IMG/VR virus record: IMGVR_UViG_2740892445_000002
DNA length: 48,538 bases
Origin: a virus
Lineage: Duplodnaviria; Heunggongvirae; Uroviricota; Caudoviricetes
Direction: 5' to 3' (one strand)
The translations under genes and the position numbers were made by a program. The notes under the pieces are model-generated. The model had not been told where the DNA came from and ran no database searches. It was given only the letters and a program-made list of their open reading frames with translations. This document shows positions 676 to 36,440 of the stretch, in pieces. Every line of letters begins with the position of its first letter. Position 1 is the stretch's first letter.

Positions 676-896
676 TTTCCCGTGCCCTCTTCCGATACCG
701 GCACCCAGACCGGCATTTTTTCCGTACCGACTCCCCGCTTCATGCCCGCCGGTGCAGCATCCGCTGCAAAAACTTTATACACGGCATAGTCCACCTCTAT
801 ACCATCCACAGGCCAGTTTCCGGTAGTCTCGTAAACGGCACGCAGGGAGGCCGGATAAAACATATTCGCGGACGGTGAAAAAATATAACGCTCCAT
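672..896 (-). CDS. small hypothetical protein between tail fibre and tfa
   Basis: 74 aa ORF, start overlaps stop of next gene (ATGA coupling); no recognisable family. Confidence 0.4.
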   Translation of the reverse strand: MERYIFSPSANMFYPASLRAVYETTGNWPVDGIEVDYAVYKVFAADAAPAGMKRGVGTEKMPVWVPVSEEGTGK

Positions 897-905
897 AATC
901 CCTCC

Positions 906-2312
906 TCAGTATCCGGTCGCTTCCCAGAAAAACTTACCGGAGGTTCCTCTGACAGTCCTCAGTGTCACCGACTGCAATGACGGTGAGGACAGAGTGTATC
1001 CAGGAATTTTCCCGGGCTCCCCCACCGGAGAAACCTGAACATTCAGCACTGCTGAAGGAAAAACCACCGGAAAACGGATGGAGTGCAGTGATAACGCCTG
1101 ACCATCGGATTCACTTATCACAAGCGTACCCCATTGTCGCATCCGTCCGGTAGCCTCATCACGTTCCCAGCCATTGACAGCCAGACTCGCCGTCGTGGGT
1201 TTATTCCTGGTACCGTAATCCACCCGCCAGTGGTATTTCCGGGTATCGCCATAAACCGTACAGGTACAGACCGTGCCATTAATAAACCCCGTTGCACCGT
1301 ATTCACCAATGGTGACCCGTACAATGGCGGCGTCATATGTTCCCATCACTTCAATGGTACAGCCGCCCAGATTGAGTTTCCCCGGTCCGACATCAGTGAT
1401 GGCCTTATTCATCGCCGCTGGCAGTGATGCCTTCATTATCCAGCAGGTATGGTCAAATGCCCCCTGCTCTTTCAGCCAGGCAACAAACTCTTCTGTCGTC
1501 CACTCACCTGCTCCGGTTGAAATGTCACGCCCGTATGCTCTGGGCACACCAAGCTCACGGATGAAAGCTTCCCTGTCTGTAATATCTTCAAGGCTGCCTG
1601 ATTTTCCCTGAGGCCCGGCAGGCCCCTGTGGTCCCGGATCTCCCTTTGGCCCTGGAGGGCCACCCGGATCTCCTTTCTCTCCCTTTTCACCCCGTTCGCC
1701 TCTGGGCCCTGTGTCCCCCCTGTCACCTTTTGGTCCCACAGGACCGGCTTTACCCTCAGGTCCTGTGGCTCCGGTATCCCCTTTGGGGCCCGGAACACCC
1801 TGTGCCCCTGTTGCACCACGCTCACCCTGTGGCCCGGTTGCACCTGTCTCACCTTTCGGTCCCTGTACCCCCTGCGGTCCCGGGTCACCTTTATCACCCT
1901 TCGGCCCCCTGGCATTCTCTGCCCGTTTTTTGGCCTCCTCTGCACTGGCTGCGGAGGCTTCAGCACGCTTCAGTATTTCCGCAGCCACCGCTTCCAGCTC
2001 AGCGAGGGCTTTCGGATAATATGGCGCATCCTCAAAGTCCATCAGGAATTTATTCAGTGTTCCCGGTGCAGAGTCCGCCTTCACCAGAATGTCACCGACG
2101 TATGACGGCATACGCCCTTCTGTGTTCAGGGTCACACGGTACAGCCCCGGTTCAACATCCATACTGTAGCTGCCTGTCTCCCCCGGCTGCCCGTATGCCA
2201 CCGTGGTGACAATCACCGTTTCTGTGGTGCGTCGCGCTTTCAGTTCTATTGTGCATCCCGGTACCGGCTTCCCCGCGCCGTCCTTCAGCACACCCGATAT
2301 TCTGACTGCCAT
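906..2312 (-). CDS. stf: side tail fibre protein with collagen-like Gly-X-Y repeats
   Basis: N-terminus [17 protein letters not shown]... matches lambda Stf N-terminus; central run of about 35 G-X-Y triplets ([13 protein letters not shown]...). Confidence 0.85.
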
Positions 2313-2325
2313 AGATTTTCCCCAT

Positions 2326-2359
2326 AAAAAAACCGCAGTGCCGGTTTCCCGGTCTGCGG
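2326..2359 (-). terminator. intrinsic terminator-like hairpin plus U-run just upstream of stf start
   Basis: Minus-strand read CCGCAGACCGGGAAACCGGCACUGCGG followed by UUUUUUU, about 10 nt before the stf ATG. Confidence 0.55.
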
Positions 2360-2688
2360 TAAAAATCGTGGTTTACAGGATTAAAAAGGTGCTATCCGGA
2401 ACCGGAATTCACACAGTGAACTGTGGGTGATCCAGATAATGAGCACTACCGTGATACAAATCACGGTGGTTTTTAACGGTTTTTGCGACACAGAACTTGC
2501 TCCTTATTACGGAGAGGCGCTAACCTGCCACTTGCTTAAGGTAGACGGTTCAGGGCCTCGGGTTAACATTGAAGTTGACTCGGGGCCTTTTCACATCAGG
2601 CCTTCAGGTGTTCCCTCCGGCCATCAGCCAAAGGCACCCGCGCATACTGTACGGTTTTATATCCTTCCGGCAATTCCGGTCATCATGT

Positions 2689-9992: not shown

Positions 9993-10322
9993 TCAGCTTA
10001 CTACCTGTTTAAACTCAGCACTAAATTCCACACGCAGCATATTTATCCTGGAGGTCCATTTAGCACACGTCACCTTTATCTGCCTGTACGTATAAGGCGG
10101 CGTCCACAGAAACGCCTTCCAACCCCCGTGCTCTGCCAGAAAATCTTCCAGCCGTCTGGCATCATCACGGGACACAGACAGCGAAACGTTGTAGATTTTC
10201 AGATCCGCATTCAGCCCGGCAGGCGCACGCTGGGAATACCCGTCCCCAAAACGCACTTCCATAACCGACGGCTCAGAGGTCACTTCCATTCCCGGCTTCA
10301 CTTTCCAGCGAAATGTTTTCAA
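9993..10322 (-). CDS. M: minor tail protein M
   Basis: 109 aa, MKTFRWKVKPGM... as in lambda gpM. Confidence 0.9.
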   Translation of the reverse strand: MKTFRWKVKPGMEVTSEPSVMEVRFGDGYSQRAPAGLNADLKIYNVSLSVSRDDARRLEDFLAEHGGWKAFLWTPPYTYRQIKVTCAKWTSRINMLRVEFSAEFKQVVS

Positions 10323-12901
10323 CGCCCACCTCCGGAGAACATACCGCCATCACGCATCTGTGCCTGGATCTCATCACGGGCTCCCTTACGGGCCATGTCA
10401 TAAACCAGCACCAGTGCCTGCGGACCGATACTGCCATTCGTGGCATCATTCTGAATCACCACATTGTTGTTCTGATTAAAACTGATACCATCTGCCCGCC
10501 GCATCTGAGCCTGACTTCCGGAACCACCCACATAACCGCCATCCGCATACCCCCGCATCAGGCGGTACAGGTTGCCGACACCAATCCGGCTGGTTGCCTC
10601 CTTCGTGAACACAAACTCACCACGGTGAACAATCCCCGCAGGCTCATATTTTCCGCCAGTGCCGGTGAATCCACCGGTCGCAAAATGAAAGTTTGCTGCC
10701 GCAGCCTGAATGGCTGTCCCCGTGGAAGCTGACGCGCCAGCACCACCAATGGCTCCCCCGATGGCGCTGCCGATACTCCCGACAATCCCCACCATGGCCT
10801 GTTTAATCAGGATTTCCGTCATCATGGACAGCACCGAACGGGTGAAACTGCGCCAGTTCTGTTCACTGCCGGTCAGCATTGCCGCCATATTCTGTGCAAT
10901 ACCATCAAAGGTCTGCGTTGCAGCACTTTTAACCTGCGAAAAACTGTCCGTCGCACTTTCAACCCACTCACCCCAGCCAGACTTAAACCCGGCCAGCCAG
11001 TCACTGCGCAGCATATCTTCATCCGCCCATGTCTGCTTCAGTGCCCCGGTGACCTGTGCCAGCGCCTGCGGATTATCGCGGTACACGTCACGAAGACGCT
11101 GCTCTTCAGACTCACGCTGCGCCTGACGATCAGTGAGACCGCGGGCTTTTGCGCTGATGGCCGCCTGCTTCGCGCTCTGCTGCTCTTCAAACCGCGCTGC
11201 CTGCTGTGCCAGCTCATTCAGCCGTTTCTGGTATTCAACCTTGTCGCCCAGGTCAGCCAGCTGGCGTTTGTACTCCAGCGTCTCTTTCTCATGGGCCAGC
11301 AGGGATTTTTCCTGCTCAGATAACTGCCGTTTCGTGGCGGCCTCTTTCAGGACCGCATACTGATTTTCCGCTTTCCATAAATCCCGGCGCTGCTGGCTGA
11401 TTTTCTCATTCGTACCACTGTGTTTTTCCAGCGTCCGGAGCTCGGTATCAAGCGCCAGCAGGGCAGCATGCGCCTGGTCTTCCTGACGCTCACCGGCTGA
11501 CACTTTTACACCTGACGACTTCGGCTTTTTCAGCGTCGCTTCATAATCCTTTTTCGCAGCCGCCATCAGCGTGTTGTAATCTGCCTGCAGGATTTTCCCG
11601 TCTTTCAGTGCCTTCTTCAGTTCCTTCTGGCGGGCGGTATATTTATCCAGCGGCGTCTGCAGGCGTTCATATGCCTTCTGCACCTCTTCGGTGTACTTCA
11701 GCCGTGAGGCCTCTGATTCAGCCCGATCCCGTGCCGCCATTTCGCTGGCTTTTTCCAGGTCTGCCTGCAGTGTCGCCGCTGAAAGACCGAGGCGGGCGTT
11801 TTCGCGGTCGTCCCATGCGCCGCGCAGATTAGAAAGATACGCTGACGTTTTTCCGCGCCGGTTACTGCGACTCTGATACCATTGCCATTTTTTATCCGCC
11901 TCATCGAATGCCTGCTGTGCCTTATTCAGCATTTCTGCAGATGACTCAGGACGCCCGATATCCAGCACTGCATCCCACATGGATTTAAACGCACTGCCGA
12001 CTTTATCCGCCCAGGTCTCCAGCGTTCCCATATTCGCTTTCAGGCGGCGGGTCTGCTCATCAAACCCTTTTGTGGCGGCCTCGTTTGCGGCCTGCAATGC
12101 CCCGGCCTCATCACCGGAACGCTGCAGTTGCGCAACATACGCAATCTGCTCTGCCGTCACGTTACGGAACTGGCGCGCCATCGCCATCAGCCCCGACGTC
12201 GGGTCGGTGGTCAGTTTTCCGAAAGCCTCTGCAATCTTGTCCACTTCCACACCGGATGCAGAAGCAAAACGCGCCACACTCTGATTAATGGCATCAAACT
12301 GTTCACCACCACGCACACCGGCATTCACCAGTGCTGCCAGTGACTCACTCGCCTGATTAAACGTCAGCCCTGCTGCCTGTCCTGCTCTGGAGAGAGTCAG
12401 CATGCGATCTGCGGTCAGCCCGGACTGATTACCGGAAAGAACCAGGGTTTTATTAAACGCTGAAAGCGTGGAGTCCCCCTGGTACCAGGCATACGCCAGC
12501 GCCCCGGTTGCTGCAACGAGTGATGTGATCCCGACAGCAGGCAGCGTGACGGCACCAGCAAGGCTCCGGAACATGGGGATCAGCCCACCGAAGGAGTCCT
12601 TCACCTGTCCGCCCTGCTGCAGCAGGATCAACCACGGACTCTGACCACCGGCAAGCTGCGTGGCGATATCCGTGAACTGTGCGGGCAGGGTACGCATGGC
12701 TGCTTTATACTGCCCGACGGAAATCCCGGCTTTTTGTGCGGCCAGCGCCTGACGGTTCAGACTCTGCTCAACGGCACCGGCGGTTTTTCTGGCGTCGGTA
12801 TCCAGTCCTGAAAAATGACGCCTTACCCGGCTCATCTGCTCATCGAAACGGGCCGCATCCAGACTCAGGTCAATAACAAGATCACCAACCGGCTGGGACA
12901 T
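10319..12901 (-). CDS. H: tail tape measure protein H
   Basis: 860 aa, long coiled-coil middle, Gly-rich C-terminal part; position and size match lambda gpH. Confidence 0.95.
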   Translation of the reverse strand: MSQPVGDLVIDLSLDAARFDEQMSRVRRHFSGLDTDARKTAGAVEQSLNRQALAAQKAGISVGQYKAAMRTLPAQFTDIATQLAGGQSPWLILLQQGGQVKDSFGGLIPMFRSLAGAVTLPAVGITSLVAATGALAYAWYQGDSTLSAFNKTLVLSGNQSGLTADRMLTLSRAGQAAGLTFNQASESLAALVNAGVRGGEQFDAINQSVARFASASGVEVDKIAEAFGKLTTDPTSGLMAMARQFRNVTAEQIAYVAQLQRSGDEAGALQAANEAATKGFDEQTRRLKANMGTLETWADKVGSAFKSMWDAVLDIGRPESSAEMLNKAQQAFDEADKKWQWYQSRSNRRGKTSAYLSNLRGAWDDRENARLGLSAATLQADLEKASEMAARDRAESEASRLKYTEEVQKAYERLQTPLDKYTARQKELKKALKDGKILQADYNTLMAAAKKDYEATLKKPKSSGVKVSAGERQEDQAHAALLALDTELRTLEKHSGTNEKISQQRRDLWKAENQYAVLKEAATKRQLSEQEKSLLAHEKETLEYKRQLADLGDKVEYQKRLNELAQQAARFEEQQSAKQAAISAKARGLTDRQAQRESEEQRLRDVYRDNPQALAQVTGALKQTWADEDMLRSDWLAGFKSGWGEWVESATDSFSQVKSAATQTFDGIAQNMAAMLTGSEQNWRSFTRSVLSMMTEILIKQAMVGIVGSIGSAIGGAIGGAGASASTGTAIQAAAANFHFATGGFTGTGGKYEPAGIVHRGEFVFTKEATSRIGVGNLYRLMRGYADGGYVGGSGSQAQMRRADGISFNQNNNVVIQNDATNGSIGPQALVLVYDMARKGARDEIQAQMRDGGMFSGGGR

Positions 12902-13295
12902 ATCTCACACCTCCTGAAATCCCCGCTGAAGCCATCATTAATGCAACATCATCCTCGCTGACATCCACCACATCTGCAGAAGGTGAAATATCGCCCCCTC
13001 CCTCCCCACCGAACCGGACGCCTCCGGCAAGTCCTGCCGCTTTCTGCATCAGCATGTCTTCCTCATCCGGCATCTCCGTCTGCTCTTCCTCTCGCCGGGG
13101 AGCCAGCAGACTGAAATCCGAGGGATGCATATCCGGATCGCAAAAAAACAGGCTGAGTACGGCGTACATCAGCCCGGAAAAATGCATATCCAGTTGGGTA
13201 TCCTGAAAATAATGCGTGCGGTAAAAATGTCGCCAGTCGGCATATTCGGTGGATGTCATCCCGGCAAGCATGGCGCGCCAGTCAGGCCTCCCCAT
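12882..13295 (-). CDS. T: T frame of the G-T tail assembly chaperone (expressed by -1 frameshift from G)
   Basis: ORF lies in -1 frame relative to G by track coordinates and is open across the end of G. Confidence 0.8.
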   Translation of the reverse strand: MGRPDWRAMLAGMTSTEYADWRHFYRTHYFQDTQLDMHFSGLMYAVLSLFFCDPDMHPSDFSLLAPRREEEQTEMPDEEDMLMQKAAGLAGGVRFGGEGGGDISPSADVVDVSEDDVALMMASAGISGGVRYVPAGW

Positions 13296-13321
13296 CTCAC
13301 GCGCCAGTCTGAGGGCAAAAT

Positions 13322-13753
13322 TCAGCTCGCCGTCGAAAACTTTCCCGCAGAAAAATCATCATCAGTAAGCACGTTATTTTTCGCCACTTCGGTGATATCA
13401 GTATCCGTATGAACAGGCTCGCTCATCCCGGACAGATGCAACACCACATCTTCCGCCCGGGCAATGGCATCGGCAGGCCAGGTGGTGAGCACTTCCTGCT
13501 CGATCTGCATCACGGCCTCATTCATGGACGGCATCTGCGTTTTCTGTGGATGGTTATGCCACAGGGACATCGCCACCAGAAACGCGCCGGTTCTGACGAG
13601 ATCTTCCACGCTCACCTGCAGGTTACCGCTGGCTTCAGCCTGTTCTGCACGCCGTTTCAGCAGGGCAAGATGCTCAATACGCTGCAGCGCAGACAGCTCA
13701 GAAAGCGTGACGGACACACCGTTATATTCAAATTGTTCTGTTTTCAGAAACAT
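13322..13753 (-). CDS. G: tail assembly chaperone G
   Basis: 143 aa, MFLKTEQFEYNGVSVTLSELSALQRIEHLA... like lambda gpG; ends just after a GGGAAAG slippery heptamer. Confidence 0.9.
   Translation of the reverse strand: MFLKTEQFEYNGVSVTLSELSALQRIEHLALLKRRAEQAEASGNLQVSVEDLVRTGAFLVAMSLWHNHPQKTQMPSMNEAVMQIEQEVLTTWPADAIARAEDVVLHLSGMSEPVHTDTDITEVAKNNVLTDDDFSAGKFSTAS
13339..13346 (-). promoter_or_regulatory. programmed -1 ribosomal frameshift slippery site G GGA AAG (G to G-T fusion)
   Basis: Heptamer GGGAAAG in G frame about 6 codons before G stop; coordinates approximate to 1-2 nt. Confidence 0.7.
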
Positions 13754-13772: not shown

Positions 13773-14522
13773 TTAACCCGCTGCGCCATCCGTGACGGTA
13801 ATTTCCGCCACTGCCGCAAACTCACCATTGCCGGTGACAACAGGGATCTGCGCTTTACCCGCCGCAACACCTTTCACCGTGATTGTGTTACCCTTCACGG
13901 TAATGGTGGCGAAATTCTGATTTGCCGACGTGGCACGGAAGGTTTTATCCGTCACCCCTTCCGGCTGAACGGCCACGGTCAGGGTGATACTCTGACCTTT
14001 TGCCACATTGCCCGTTGGTGGCGTCACAGTAATCCCCGTGACCGGTGTGATGTCACCCCGATCCTCCGCCAGCGAAGGACGACCGATATTGGTGATCTTC
14101 ACGGTACGGGTGATCACCTCTTTGGCGGTCACCGCTTTACCAATGGCACTCACCCAGCCACGGAACACATCCACCGTGCCATTCGGGAAGCGGATTTTGT
14201 AAGCCCGGGTCTCGCTGCTGTCAAACCAGGCTATCAAATCACGCTGTCCTTGCTCACCCGGTTTCCAGGCCAGCGTAAAACTGGTGTCACCCGCGGATTT
14301 CTGTCCCTGCCCGGTGGATACCCAGTCGGCATCCTCATCATCCAGATAGTTATCGTCGTAGGATTCCGCCGTCATCTCGCCGGGGGTCAGATCCTTTATT
14401 TTTGCCAGACGCGTCCACTCATCATCTGACAACGGGTTTGCATAAGCATCACCCTTGCCGGTGTAAACCCAGAGCGTGGTGCCGGAACCTTTTACCGGCG
14501 CCAGGGGATTTGGTGTTGCCAT
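13773..14522 (-). CDS. V: major tail protein V (with C-terminal Ig-like domain)
   Basis: 249 aa, ...[12 protein letters not shown]... and [14 protein letters not shown] motifs as in lambda gpV. Confidence 0.95.
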
Positions 14523-29846: not shown

Positions 29847-29851
29847 GTCCA

Positions 29852-29876
29852 TAAAAAAGCCCCTCCGGAGAGGGGC
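29852..29876 (-). terminator. intrinsic terminator after repeat unit 1
   Basis: Minus-strand GCCCCUC-UCCG-GAGGGGC followed by UUUUUUAU. Confidence 0.6.
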
Positions 29877-29898
29877 ATACTAGCTATATATCCATTTA

Positions 29899-30026
29899 TC
29901 ATTGGCTGCGTGGTGCCGGGTGCCTCCCGGTGAGCTCAGTCTGGTGTCACTGAGCCCGCACATTCTCGATCCAAGTTATCGTCGGAGATAATACCTGATA
30001 CACCAGACGCCCCTCCGCACAGGGGG
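29899..30026 (-). repeat. tRNA-like cloverleaf repeat unit 1 (candidate structured ncRNA)
   Basis: Conserved blocks GGTGCCGGGTGCCTCCCGGTG and CCCCTCCGCACAGGGGGATTCACCA; terminal stem CGTGGTG/CACCACG; variable interior. Confidence 0.5.
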
Positions 30027-30263
30027 ATTCACCACGCGCAGAGAAGGATACTGAACACTATTTTCTCCAGGCAATATGCAATAACATGAAGTGTGAGATG
30101 ACTTACAATTATAAAAAACAGCCTACAGAATACTCCTAAATAAAGCCATATCAAAATGAGTAACACAAAAAGGAACCAGGCAAAAATTTACGAGCAGGTA
30201 TTATCCAGCAACAGTTCAGACGCCATAACTTATTGCCGATAGCTACCATCAATAATTTCTTTC

Positions 30264-30289
30264 ATAAAAAAGCCCCTCTGAAGAGGGGC
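30264..30289 (-). terminator. intrinsic terminator after repeat unit 2
   Basis: Minus-strand GCCCCUC-UUCA-GAGGGGC followed by UUUUUUAU. Confidence 0.6.
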
Positions 30290-30316
30290 TGACATACGCA
30301 TTTGCTTTCATCATCA

Positions 30317-30439
30317 ATATGGCGCCGGGTGCCTCCCGGTGCTCCATAACTGATTAATATGGAACGCGGTTTCATTCAGTTGCATTCATGAATAACACTC
30401 TAATCAGTCCGCCCCGCCGCTTAGGGGGATTCGCCATAT
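30317..30439 (-). repeat. tRNA-like cloverleaf repeat unit 2 (candidate structured ncRNA)
   Basis: Same blocks with compensatory changes (GGCGCC... / ...GATTCGCCA); terminal stem ATATGGCG/CGCCATAT; interior closed by ACTGATTA/TAATCAGT. Confidence 0.5.
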
Positions 30440-30574
30440 AAATTGAAAGTACTGAACACATCTGTCACAAACAATATGCAATTGTATGAATTGTGAGATT
30501 ATTATCAATAACACAAAATTACAGCTCTAGTACATAAACAGCAGATTAAACAAGAACAACAAAAGTATTGAATT

Positions 30575-30697
30575 GCACGGTGCCGGGTGCCTCCCGGTGA
30601 ATTCTGCAATGACCAGACAGAATCCGCAACTTGCTACTAACGCTAATGCGACCAAGCCTCAGTCATTATGCCCCTCCGCACAGGGGGATTCACCATG
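30575..30697 (-). repeat. tRNA-like cloverleaf repeat unit 3 (candidate structured ncRNA)
   Basis: Same conserved blocks; terminal stem GCACGGTG/CACCATGC (one mismatch); interior closed by AATGAC/GTCATT. Confidence 0.5.
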
Positions 30698-30827
30698 CGC
30701 TAAAAAAATACAAAACGTCACGTCACTCTGACAATACGAAGCACCATAAAATGTGAGTTATTTATCAATTCTTAATTCTGGTTACAGGAATATTCCGAAT
30801 CAAATCTTTAAAAAAAGAAATTCAAAT

Positions 30828-30930
30828 GCATGGTGCCGGGTGCCTCCCGGTGAACAGACCGTCCGTGATACCAGTAGGCAACACAGGAAATTAATGGTAT
30901 CACCCCACCGCACAGGGGGATTCACCATGC
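30828..30930 (-). repeat. tRNA-like cloverleaf repeat unit 4 (candidate structured ncRNA)
   Basis: Same conserved blocks; terminal stem GCATGGTG/CACCATGC; interior closed by GTGATACCA/TGGTATCAC. Confidence 0.5.
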
Positions 30931-31320
30931 AGGCGTTTTCTTAGCAAACTAACTGCGCGCCCGGCAACTCCCAACCACATAAAACGTGGAGTTTGTAGCA
31001 TTTATGCACATAACTCACAGGGGTTATCTTAAAAAAAGCTGACCATGCTTCCCCGGCAACGCAATAACTTTATTCCCTGAAGTGGCATCCCCCGTATTGT
31101 CGGCAGGCTCAAAAAGGAGCCAGTCATCTGAGGATGACTGGAAAAAGGAAAGATAAAAAATTATTCATCATACAACCTTCGTTGCAGGGGAGAATCCTGC
31201 GGTGCAGCAACATACAAAAACATAAGCCAACTAACAATATGCAGGCATAGCATTTTCGGATTTTGTTATATGGCACGGTAACTGAATGCTTACCTGATAT
31301 ACAGTCCGGTATAAAGTTGC

Positions 31321-31582: not shown

Positions 31583-31660
31583 TGCTGGACCGTCACCGGG
31601 GACTCGAACCCCGCATTTTCAACATAAAAAGGTTGATGCTCTTTCCTGATGAGCTAGTGA
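31583..31660 (-). tRNA. tRNA-like gene with 8-nt anticodon loop CUUUUUAU (Lys-UUU-like; possible variant or pseudogene)
   Basis: Acceptor stem CCGTCAC/GTGACGG, D arm GCTC-ATCAGGAAA-GAGC, T arm CGGGG-TTCGAGT-CCCCG, encoded CCA; anticodon loop one nt too long. Confidence 0.55.
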
Positions 31661-31662
31661 CG

Positions 31663-31737
31663 GCATGGTTGCCTTGCTGGATTTGAACCAGCGACCTGGC
31701 GATTATGAGTCTCTCGCTCTCACCACTGAGCTAAAGG
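31663..31737 (-). tRNA. tRNA-like gene with CAU anticodon (Met/Ile2-like), imperfect acceptor and anticodon stems; possible pseudogene
   Basis: D arm GCTC-AGTGGTGA-GAGC, anticodon loop CTCATAA, T arm GCTGG-TTCAAAT-CCAGC, CCA; only 4 of 7 acceptor pairs form by my reading. Confidence 0.45.
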
Positions 31738-31780
31738 GCCGGGAACAGAATAATAATGGTGCGTAATTAATTCTGCAATC

Positions 31781-36107: not shown

Positions 36108-36263
36108 TTACTTCTCAGATTCGTAAGCTGTGAAGACAGCGACCTCCGTCTGGCCGGTTCGGATTCGTACCTCGCAGAGGTCTTTCCTCGTTACCAGTAC
36201 CGTTACAACGACGGTAATACAGATGACGATCAGGGCGATTAGCATCGCCTTTTGCTGCTTCAT
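36108..36263 (-). CDS. hokD: Hok-family type I toxin (HokD/RelF-like)
   Basis: 51 aa MKQQKAMLIALIVICITVVVTVLVTRKDLCEVRIRTGQTEVAVFTAYESEK, near-identical to my recollection of HokD. Confidence 0.9.
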   Translation of the reverse strand: MKQQKAMLIALIVICITVVVTVLVTRKDLCEVRIRTGQTEVAVFTAYESEK

Positions 36264-36440
36264 AGCCTGCTGCTCCTTGCCTTTCGGCGCGTAAGAGGCT
36301 AATCTAAGTGTGCAAGTCATAGATATGGCCTCAGATTAATGTTAAGCGTCCTGCAAGACGCATAATGTTAACTGGGGCTTTTCTCTGTCTGCCTTACGTC
36401 GGCATGCCCGAGGCAGACAGCCTCAAGCACCCGCAGCAAT
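36264..36440. promoter_or_regulatory. hok mRNA leader / mok start / antisense Sok region
   Basis: Minus-strand leader GGGUGCUUGAGGCUGUCUGCCUC... resembles hok mRNA 5' end; in-frame upstream start MTCTLRL... Confidence 0.45.

What the first reader, a model, noticed from the sequence alone, without database searches (positions are those of the whole stretch)
13322..13753. Programmed -1 frameshift G to G-T conserved
A GGGAAAG slippery heptamer lies a few codons before the G stop and the T ORF is open in the -1 frame across it, as in lambda. Hand-read line coordinates here disagreed with the ORF track by 1 nt; I trusted the track.
Basis: partly seen in the sequence, partly recalled or inferred. 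Interest (0 to 1): 0.3.

Follow-up and report, generated by a model that had tools for sequence, protein, structure and literature searches.

The report
Lambda-type G/G-T tail chaperone frameshift site
This is the well-known lambda-style "slippery" spot where a few ribosomes slip back one base at the end of tail gene G and make a longer G-T fusion protein needed for tail assembly; it is intact here, and ordinary for a lambda-like prophage.

Summary
Coordinates 13322-13753 are gene G, a 143-aa tail assembly chaperone (Pfam PF06894), on the MINUS strand. The heptamer G GGA AAG lies at 13346-13340 (-) in exact X XXY YYZ phase. Five sense codons separate it from the G stop. The -1 frame is closed by three TGA codons just upstream (13364-13356). 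From there it stays open for 154 codons, from the heptamer to the stop at 12884-12882. That stretch encodes a gpT homologue (PF06223).

The predicted fusion is 290 aa, about 73% identical to lambda gpGT, and matches a 290-position PHROG profile end to end. The genes sit in lambda order, Z-U-V-G-T-H.

The heptamer alone is not above chance (8 copies in the window, 7.4 expected). Its position is: about 0.003 X XXA AAG sites are expected in a 10-codon overlap.

The site is conserved:
- 83/83 loci (the window, lambda, PhiR5_1 and 80 close relatives) carry the same heptamer in phase.
- 59/59 usable loci from species-representative genomes carry an in-phase A AAR slip site at the same G|T junction, with a variable P-site codon.

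No family-wide downstream RNA stimulator was found.

Verdict: already known biology and a correct call. Production of the fusion protein was not tested.

The parts
13322..13753 (-). Gene G: tail assembly chaperone gpG, 143 aa, product of standard (zero-frame) translation
   Evidence: ORF. Pfam PF06894 Phage_TAC_2, E 6.9e-52. phrog_42 / phrog_32165. About 69% identical to lambda G by tblastn.
13340..13346 (-). Slippery heptamer G GGA AAG (X XXY YYZ). GGA sits in the P site and AAG in the A site. After a -1 slip the tRNAs pair with GGG and AAA.
   Evidence: Same sequence, same phase and same 5-codon distance to the stop as in lambda. Present in phase in all 83 sequences scanned: the window, lambda, PhiR5_1 and 80 close relatives.
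13322..13324 (-). G stop codon (TGA), bypassed by ribosomes that have shifted
13356..13364 (-). Three consecutive TGA codons in the -1 frame. They close that frame just upstream, so any productive shift must occur between 13355 and 13325.
   Evidence: Frame translations ('RAY***FFCGKVFDG'). Sequence.
12882..13346 (-). T reading frame (-1 relative to G), from GGG of the heptamer to its TGA stop: 154 codons. It encodes the gpT domain of the fusion (GKVFDGELNFALRLAREMGRPDWRAML...).
   Evidence: PF06223 Phage_tail_T, E 3.4e-13. phrog_32165 positions 140-290 and phrog_39. Third-codon-position variability in this frame begins right after the heptamer.
12882..13753 (-). Whole G-T unit. The predicted frameshift product gpGT is 290 aa: G residues 1-136, then Gly-Lys decoded at the slip site, then the T domain.
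   Evidence: Fusion built. 73% identity to lambda gpGT. The length equals the phrog_32165 profile length of 290.
12882..13295 (-). The 'T' CDS as annotated in public records, starting at an internal ATG (MGRPDW...). This is probably an annotation convention and not a real start.
   Evidence: RefSeq E. coli M18 and GenBank PhiR5_1 annotate T from this ATG, with no slippage join. The Met is Phe in most relatives, and the frame is conserved upstream of it.
13262..13332 (-). Predicted local RNA stem-loops starting 7 nt 3' of the heptamer. They are not supported as a conserved stimulator.
   Evidence: MFE -40.8 kcal/mol, z = -2.5. Some covariation in 9 sequences. It dissolves in 33 diverse sequences: RNAalifold -1.2 kcal/mol, and pairs with double changes 6 against 6.0 in shuffles.
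13773..14522 (-). Gene V, major tail tube protein, immediately upstream of G
   Evidence: PF16461 Phage_TTP_12, E 3.8e-67, plus Big_2.
10319..12901 (-). Gene H, tape measure protein, 860 aa. Its ATG at 12901 overlaps the end of T by 20 nt and is preceded by GGAGGTG.
   Evidence: PF06791 TMP_2, E 3e-67, and PF09718 Tape_meas_lam_C. Sequence.

Best explanation
This is the G/G-T tail assembly chaperone pair of a lambda-like E. coli prophage, expressed by programmed -1 ribosomal frameshifting.

Most ribosomes translate G (13753..13322, minus strand) to its TGA and release the 143-aa gpG. A minority slip back one base when GGA is in the P site and AAG in the A site of G GGA AAG (13346..13340). tRNA-Gly re-pairs with GGG and tRNA-Lys(UUU) with AAA. 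The ribosome then reads GTT TTC GAC... in the -1 frame, passes the G stop, and finishes at 12884..12882. The product is a 290-aa gpGT fusion.

By homology with lambda, gpG and the G part of gpGT coat the tape measure protein H. The T part recruits the tail tube protein V. The low slip rate (about 4% in lambda, roughly 30:1 G:GT) sets the ratio needed for correct tail assembly, and neither protein ends up in the virion.

Shown here: the sequence anatomy, the homologies, the synteny and the conservation of the site. Inferred by homology: that the shift happens, its rate, and the function of the proteins. No dedicated RNA stimulator appears to be required.
For: - Heptamer in exact X XXY YYZ phase, 5 codons before the G stop.
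- The -1 frame opens only 3 codons upstream of the heptamer and then runs 154 codons.
- G = PF06894 and the -1 product = PF06223.
- G plus T together span phrog_32165, a 290-position profile of annotated fusions, and the predicted fusion is 290 aa.
- Gene order is Z-U-V-G-T-H.
- In the lambda alignment, TTTCTGCGGGAAAGT..TTCGACGG..GAGCTGA is conserved next to a divergent, indel-containing G 3' region.
- 83/83 sequences scanned (the window, lambda, PhiR5_1 and 80 close relatives) keep the heptamer in phase.
- Distant phages keep an in-phase N NNA AAG at the homologous Gly/Lys-Lys junction: lambda G GGA AAG, Stx1_8100 A AAA AAG, and phi80, mEp237, mEp043, cdtI, 569R4 and Gifsy-2 G GAA AAG. The phi80 record annotates it as the slippery sequence.
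- 59/59 usable loci from species-representative Enterobacterales genomes have an in-phase A AAR slip site there.
- Lys138 of the fusion is invariant.
- Codon-position variability shows -1-frame coding directly after the heptamer and before any ATG: 12/15 third positions vary, against 7/14 and 7/15 at positions 1 and 2.
- About 0.003 such sites are expected by chance in the overlap.
- Literature: lambda uses GGGAAAG for G/GT at about 4%, sensitive to tRNA-Lys mnm5s2U34 modification (PMC3296357, Table 1 and text; PMC7618472). G_GGA_AAG is highly shift-prone in E. coli, the ratio is 30:1, and the G-T frameshift is widely conserved in long-tailed phages (PMC5009743).
Against: - There is no direct evidence of the fusion protein or of its abundance for this element.
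- The bare heptamer is not enriched in the window (8 against 7.4 expected).
- Public records of the identical or near-identical sequence annotate G and T as two separate CDSs, with T starting at an internal ATG.
- A T TTT run just upstream lies inside the open -1 window and could in principle give minor alternative slippage.
- It is unknown whether this prophage is inducible and makes tails.
Confidence: 0.93

Rival explanations
1. G and T are two independent genes. T is translated on its own from the internal ATG at 13295 (MGRPDW..., 137 aa), as public annotation has it, and no frameshift is needed.
For: RefSeq (E. coli M18, 100% identical DNA) and GenBank PhiR5_1 annotate T as a separate CDS from this ATG. 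The ORF finder lists it.
Against: - No Shine-Dalgarno at a workable distance: the sequence is ..GGCGCGTGAGATGGGG, with GAG abutting the ATG.
- The 15 codons between the heptamer and this ATG (VFDGELNFALRLARE) are conserved as protein in the -1 frame, with third-position variability.
- The Met is Phe (LAREFGRPDW) in phi80, mEp237, mEp043, cdtI, Gifsy-2 and most genome loci, so it cannot be the family's start.
- In lambda, T-domain protein is produced as the frameshift fusion gpGT (Levin 1993, via PMC5009743 and PMC3296357).
Confidence: 0.04
2. A -1 shift occurs in the overlap but at another place. One candidate is P-site slippage of tRNA-Phe on the T TTT T run at 13355-13351, just after the -1 frame opens. 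Another is transcriptional slippage by RNA polymerase on a homopolymer run.
For: GAT TTT TCT gives a T5 run inside the open -1 window.
Against: - The T run is specific to this clade. Lambda has CCT GTT TCT there, whereas the A AAR site is universal.
- T TTT TCT does not allow A-site re-pairing.
- Runs of 3 A or 5 T are shorter than the runs of about 7-9 usually needed for productive transcriptional slippage (general knowledge, not tested).
- In lambda the shift was mapped to the Gly-Lys dipeptide (PMC3296357).
Confidence: 0.02
3. The arrangement is a non-functional relic in a decaying prophage. The heptamer and frames persist only through recent common ancestry, and no G-T is made.
For: The element is a chromosomal prophage in E. 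coli M18, M1, M3 and CI5. One close relative has a -1 ORF of only 58 codons, which suggests decay can occur.
Against: All structural ORFs checked here (Z, U, V, G, T, H) are full length with strong family matches. The T frame is intact over 154 codons.
Confidence: 0.03

Closest known systems
Bacteriophage lambda G / G-T programmed -1 frameshift (Levin, Hendrix & Casjens 1993; Xu, Hendrix & Duda 2004, 2013, 2014)
   Same: - Identical heptamer G GGA AAG, in the same phase and with the same 5 sense codons to the G stop.
- Same V-G-T-H gene order.
- G about 69% identical to lambda G, and the fusion about 73% identical to lambda gpGT.
- The first residues after the shift are identical (GKVFDGEL).

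   Different: - G is 143 aa against 140 in lambda, and the fusion is 290 aa against 279.
- The G C-terminal linker is divergent, with indels.
- The -1 frame opens only 3 codons before the heptamer (13 in lambda), behind three tandem TGA codons.
- T ends 6 residues later (..GGVRYVPAGW) and overlaps H by 20 nt, whereas lambda has the short ATGGCTGA overlap.

phi80 / N15 / Gifsy-2-type G-T sites (G GAA AAG)
   Same: Homologous G and T, the same junction (Gly-Lys in the fusion), the same A-site A AAG, and a -1 direction.
   Different: Their P-site codon is GAA. That is a non-canonical heptamer in which P-site re-pairing is imperfect. The window has the canonical GGA. Their T domains lack the second C-terminal LMxxAxGIxGGVRY repeat present in the window and in lambda.
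E. coli dnaX gamma/tau -1 frameshift (A AAA AAG)
   Same: It uses the same shift-prone A-site A AAG, read by the single E. coli tRNA-Lys(UUU) (PMC5009743).
   Different: From my own knowledge, not tested here: dnaX is about 50% efficient because of an upstream Shine-Dalgarno-like element and a downstream hairpin. No SD-like element is seen upstream here, and no conserved downstream structure was found. That fits a low-efficiency site.

Membership tests
Lambda-type tail assembly chaperone G/GT with programmed -1 frameshift | Two overlapping ORFs located between the major tail (tube) gene and the tape measure gene | tested here: met
   V (PF16461) at 14522..13773, G at 13753..13322, T frame at 13346..12882, H (PF06791, PF09718) at 12901..10319, all on the minus strand.
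Lambda-type tail assembly chaperone G/GT with programmed -1 frameshift | The upstream ORF is a gpG-family chaperone | tested here: met
   PF06894 E 6.9e-52 over residues 1-119. phrog_42 E 1e-51.
Lambda-type tail assembly chaperone G/GT with programmed -1 frameshift | The downstream ORF is in the -1 frame, is homologous to gpT, and is coding from the slip site onward (no start of its own is required) | tested here: met
   PF06223 E 3.4e-13. phrog_32165 positions 140-290, E 3.6e-96. The -1-frame codon-position signature starts right after the heptamer. The internal Met is not conserved.
Lambda-type tail assembly chaperone G/GT with programmed -1 frameshift | A slippery heptamer in X XXY YYZ phase inside the frame overlap, near the 3' end of G | tested here: met
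   G GGA AAG at 13346..13340, at nt 408-414 of G, 5 codons before TGA. About 0.003 expected by chance in the overlap.
Lambda-type tail assembly chaperone G/GT with programmed -1 frameshift | The slip site is conserved at the homologous position in relatives | tested here: met
   83/83 sequences scanned: the window, lambda, PhiR5_1 and 80 close relatives. 10/10 diverse phages. 59/59 usable species-representative genome loci.
Lambda-type tail assembly chaperone G/GT with programmed -1 frameshift | A G-T fusion protein is actually produced at a low, fixed ratio to G, and both are required for tail assembly but absent from virions | not testable with these tools
   Known for lambda only (PMC5009743, PMC3296357). 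It needs MS, western blot and genetics on this prophage.
Stimulator-dependent -1 PRF sites (dnaX, IS elements, viral pseudoknot sites) | A conserved 3' RNA structure 5-9 nt after the heptamer and/or an upstream SD-like element | tested here: not met
   The local fold has z = -2.5. Across 33 diverse homologues the RNAalifold consensus is -1.2 kcal/mol, and double-sided changes are no more frequent than in shuffles (6 against 6.0; 377/500). No GGAGG-like motif is present within 20 nt upstream.

The most novel reading that the evidence does not exclude
The prophage's own tRNA-Lys-like gene (31586..31663, minus strand) may tune decoding of the AAG A-site codon of the G-T slip site, and so set the G:GT ratio independently of the host tRNA-Lys pool and its modification state.

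This tRNA is a homologue of the tRNA-Lys(UUU) that related phages carry downstream of Q. Here it has an 8-nt anticodon loop (anticodon read as UUUU) and a compensatory change in the acceptor stem. It may be co-expressed with the late genes.

Nothing here tests this. The tRNA may just as well be a decaying copy or an unrelated quadruplet reader.
Probability: 0.03. Interest if true: 0.55.

Novelty: already known. Interest (0 to 1): 0.08.

Why it matters
Scientifically it adds nothing new. The G-T frameshift is a textbook case of recoding and is known to be conserved in long-tailed phages.

It has two practical uses:
- It confirms that the window is a lambda-like prophage with an apparently intact tail-assembly module.
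- It shows that the public annotation of the identical sequence (RefSeq E. coli M18; GenBank PhiR5_1) misses the fusion CDS and starts T at an internal ATG. The correct annotation is a ribosomal_slippage join giving a 290-aa gpGT.

The family survey gives a small by-product. The A-site A AAR is the invariant element of the site, while the P-site codon varies (GGA, GAA, AAA, GCA). No conserved 3' structure accompanies it.

Tried and rejected
1. Downstream stimulatory RNA structure.
- The 97 nt from the heptamer fold better than shuffles (z = -2.5).
- A 9-sequence alignment hinted at covariation in a stem starting 7-8 nt after the heptamer.
- With 33 sequences under 95% identical from many genera, the stem is unpaired in about a third of the sequences. 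RNAalifold finds essentially nothing (-1.2 kcal/mol). Pairs with double changes equal the shuffle mean.
- I rejected it as a family feature. The local pairing is explained by the conserved protein sequence (DWRAML, LAREMG). A clade-specific effect is not excluded.

2. Upstream SD-like enhancer: none is seen in the sequence.

3. Solved structure for the fusion: no PDB sequence match at E <= 0.01.

4. Reading Xu et al. 2013 (PMC3762263): the paper is not held. Levin 1993 and Xu 2004/2013/2014 are therefore cited only through reviews. My recollection that Levin et al. found no requirement for a defined stimulator is unverified.

5. Heptamer enrichment in the whole window: not significant, so the argument rests on position and homology, not on count.

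6. The other top-scoring heptamer plus long -1 ORF combinations in the window (for example 45272, 1931, 1787) lie in spurious ORFs nested in other frames of real genes. I discarded them.

Full report
**Observation**

The coordinates 13322..13753 coincide exactly with a 143-aa ORF on the minus strand, stop codon included. On the minus strand the end of this ORF reads ...GAT GAT GAT TTT TCT GCG GGA AAG TTT TCG ACG GCG AGC TGA. GGGAAAG occupies 13346..13340 and starts at a third codon position (nt 408 of the ORF). It is therefore in the canonical X XXY YYZ register, G GGA AAG. Five sense codons (F S T A S) separate it from the TGA at 13324..13322.

In the -1 frame the same stretch reads TGA TGA TGA TTT TTC TGC GGG AAA GTT TTC GAC GGC GAG CTG... 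That frame is closed by three stops at 13364..13356. It then stays open for 154 codons, counted from GGG, to the TGA at 12884..12882. Trusting the ORF track was correct.

**Is it more than chance?**

The heptamer by itself is not. There are 8 copies in the window against 7.37 expected from shuffles. The configuration is:
- In all stop-to-stop ORFs of 100 codons or more (26,226 codons, both strands) there are 136 in-phase canonical heptamers and only 7 of the X XXA AAG type.
- That gives about 0.05 and about 0.003 expected, respectively, in the 10-codon window where both frames are open.
- Among the in-phase heptamers that open a long -1 extension, this is the only one in a real gene and close to its stop. 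The others lie in ORFs nested in alternative frames of larger genes.

**What the genes are**

- The 143-aa product is a gpG-family tail assembly chaperone (PF06894, E 6.9e-52).
- The -1 product carries PF06223, minor tail protein T.
- In PHROGs, G matches positions 1-141 and the T part matches positions 140-290 of phrog_32165, a 290-position profile. The fusion I predict is 290 aa.
- The neighbours are Z (PF06763), U (PF06141) and V (tail tube, PF16461 plus Big_2) upstream, and H (tape measure, PF06791 plus PF09718) downstream. This is lambda's Z-U-V-G-T-H order.
- The window is a lambda-like element of E. coli. The G-T DNA is 100% identical in the chromosomes of strains M18, M1, M3 and CI5, 97% identical in phage PhiR5_1, and in the 60-80% identity band against lambda.

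**Comparison with lambda and relatives**

In the three-way DNA alignment, the 3' third of G is divergent between the window and lambda, with indels. The block TTTCTGCGGGAAAGT-TTCGACGG-GAGCTGA is almost invariant. In lambda the heptamer is the same, in the same phase, and also 5 codons before the stop. Lambda's fusion is 279 aa, and the two fusions are 73% identical.

Close relatives and the window's own clade:
- All 83 sequences scanned carry exactly one in-phase canonical heptamer in G, and it is always GGGAAAG at this place. The 83 are the window, lambda, PhiR5_1 and 80 close relatives from IMG/VR.

More distant phages keep a slip site at the homologous junction but vary the P-site codon:
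- A AAA AAG in Stx1_8100.
- G GAA AAG in phi80, mEp237, mEp043, cdtI, 569R4 and Gifsy-2.
- The phi80 record itself annotates this heptamer as 'slippery sequence for -1 translational frameshift' and joins G-T.
- The Gifsy-2 record calls T 'part of G+G' frameshift hybrid protein'.

A scan of one genome per species returned 73 loci across Enterobacterales. Of these, 59 had a usable G start:
- 39-40 have G GAA AAG, 16 have G GGA AAG and 1 has G GGA AAA.
- 2 (Ewingella, Kluyvera) have G GCA AAA followed directly by TAG.
- So 59/59 have an in-phase A AAR tetramer at the G|T junction, 0-5 codons before the G stop.

In the fusion alignment the Lys decoded at the slip site is invariant. The invariant element is thus the A-site A AAR, read by tRNA-Lys(UUU). 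The window has the fully canonical form.

**T is read from the slip site, not from its own start**

Public records of the same or nearly the same DNA annotate T as a separate CDS from the ATG at 13295 (MGRPDW...), with no slippage join. Three observations argue that this is an annotation convention:
- The only purine-rich stretch, GAG, abuts the ATG.
- The 15 codons between the heptamer and the ATG are conserved as protein in the -1 frame. They vary mainly at -1-frame third positions: 12/15, against 7/14 and 7/15 at positions 1 and 2.
- The Met is replaced by Phe (LAREFGRPDW) in most relatives.

**Mechanism**

Established knowledge for lambda is as follows:
- GGGAAAG is the G/GT slippery sequence.
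- About 96% of ribosomes stay in frame and about 4% shift.
- The rate rises when tRNA-Lys(UUU) lacks the 2-thio modification of U34, and this harms phage yield (PMC3296357; PMC7618472).
- G_GGA_AAG is one of the most shift-prone heptamers in E. coli.
- gpG and the G part of gpGT bind the tape measure protein and the T part binds the tail tube protein.
- The ratio of about 30:1 is critical and neither protein is in the virion.
- The arrangement is widely conserved in long-tailed phages (PMC5009743; also PMC4493119 for TP901-1, which uses the same heptamer).

I infer the same for this element. Most ribosomes would make the 143-aa gpG. A few percent would slip at 13346..13340 and make the 290-aa gpGT.

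I also asked whether an RNA stimulator accompanies the site:
- The 97 nt from the heptamer fold somewhat better than shuffles (-40.8 kcal/mol, z = -2.5), with a stem beginning 7 nt after the heptamer.
- Nine sequences gave a hint of covariation.
- In 33 sequences under 95% identical from many genera the stems are unpaired in about a third of cases. RNAalifold finds only -1.2 kcal/mol. Pairs with double-sided change equal the shuffle mean.
- No SD-like element precedes the heptamer.

The site therefore looks like a heptamer-only, low-efficiency signal. This is consistent with the low rate known for lambda. A clade-specific modulatory effect of the local stem is not excluded.

**Rivals**

- Independent initiation of T (about 0.04), rejected for the reasons given above.
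- Slippage elsewhere in the 10-codon window, for example on the clade-specific T TTT T run, or transcriptional slippage (about 0.02). These elements are not conserved and the runs are short.
- A non-functional relic in a decaying prophage (about 0.03). All structural ORFs checked are intact.

**Novelty and verdict**

This is an orthologue of the lambda G-T recoding site with the identical heptamer, so it counts as already-known biology. The only thing not shown is the protein itself. The practical value lies in correcting the annotation: a ribosomal_slippage join giving a 290-aa gpGT. Interest is low.

**In passing**

- The late region carries a tRNA-Lys-like gene with an 8-nt anticodon loop, next to a CAU-anticodon tRNA.
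- There are four tandem STnc100 copies and a sok RNA.
- The lambda-type T domain has a duplicated C-terminal motif.
- Many 'lambda' loci turned up in assemblies of unrelated bacteria, which look like contamination.

Noticed in passing
window 31586..31663 (-): ARAGORN reports a tRNA with a four-base anticodon 'tttt'. Rfam tRNA scores 47.3 bits.

It is the homologue (~88-90% identity) of a phage-borne tRNA-Lys(UUU) found downstream of Q in PhiR47_1 and the PPompW/Stx2 phages.

Here the anticodon loop has 8 nt (CTTTTTAT between stems TCAAC/GTTGA) instead of 7 (CCTTTAA). The acceptor stem carries a compensatory pair change.

The same variant is present in E. coli M18, M1 and M3 (100%) and in CI5 (99.5%), where PGAP calls it tRNA-Lys. 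It could be a quadruplet reader, a modulator of Lys decoding, or a decaying gene.
   Followed up: partly
window 31667..31741 (-): The adjacent tRNA has a CAU anticodon. ARAGORN calls it tRNA-Met. RefSeq annotates the identical sequence as tRNA-Ile, that is, the lysidine-modified Ile2 type.
   Followed up: no
window 29847..30960 (-): Four tandem copies of the Rfam sRNA family STnc100 (RF02076; 133, 102, 100 and 77 bits), downstream of the tRNAs in the late-gene leader region.
   Followed up: no
window 36258..36432 (-): A full-length match to the sok antitoxin RNA (RF01794, 115 bits). This implies a hok/sok-type toxin-antitoxin locus inside the prophage.
   Followed up: no
window 12882..12901 (-) and 12882..13100 (-): T ends 6 residues later than lambda T (..GGVRYVPAGW*) and overlaps the H start by 20 nt.

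Lambda-type T domains (window, lambda, Stx1_8100) carry two copies of the C-terminal motif LMxxAxG(I/L)xGGVR(Y/F). The phi80, cdtI and Gifsy-2 types carry one.
   Followed up: partly
L164 (E. coli M18, NZ_CP010219.1) 876..1289; L002 (PhiR5_1) 1961..2374: Public records of identical or near-identical DNA annotate T as a stand-alone CDS from the internal ATG, with no ribosomal-slippage join. The 290-aa gpGT is therefore missing from the protein sets.
   Followed up: yes
L155 (Ewingella americana) ~1599-1605; L156 (Kluyvera genomosp. 1) ~1596-1602: Variant G-T slip site G GCA AAA, followed immediately by the G stop TAG. The P-site codon cannot re-pair well, and a stop codon sits in the A site after the slip codon. 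L152 (Providencia) has G GGA AAA TAG.
   Followed up: partly
L093-L110, L128, L138, L144, L151 (genome-contig hits): Lambda-type G-T loci, in several cases with identical match statistics (71% identity to the query; lambda itself aligns at 73%), appear on low-coverage contigs (~1x) of assemblies labelled Neobacillus, Oceanobacillus, Kitasatospora, Shewanella, Pseudomonas, Chromatium, Leeuwenhoekiella and others. This most likely reflects lambda DNA contamination of those assemblies rather than real prophages.
   Followed up: no
one of L003-L082 (IMG/VR close relatives): One close relative has a -1 (T) ORF of only 58 codons after the heptamer, and one has 230 codons. Possible explanations are a truncated T and a T-H read-through or an assembly error. 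The loci were not identified individually.
   Followed up: no
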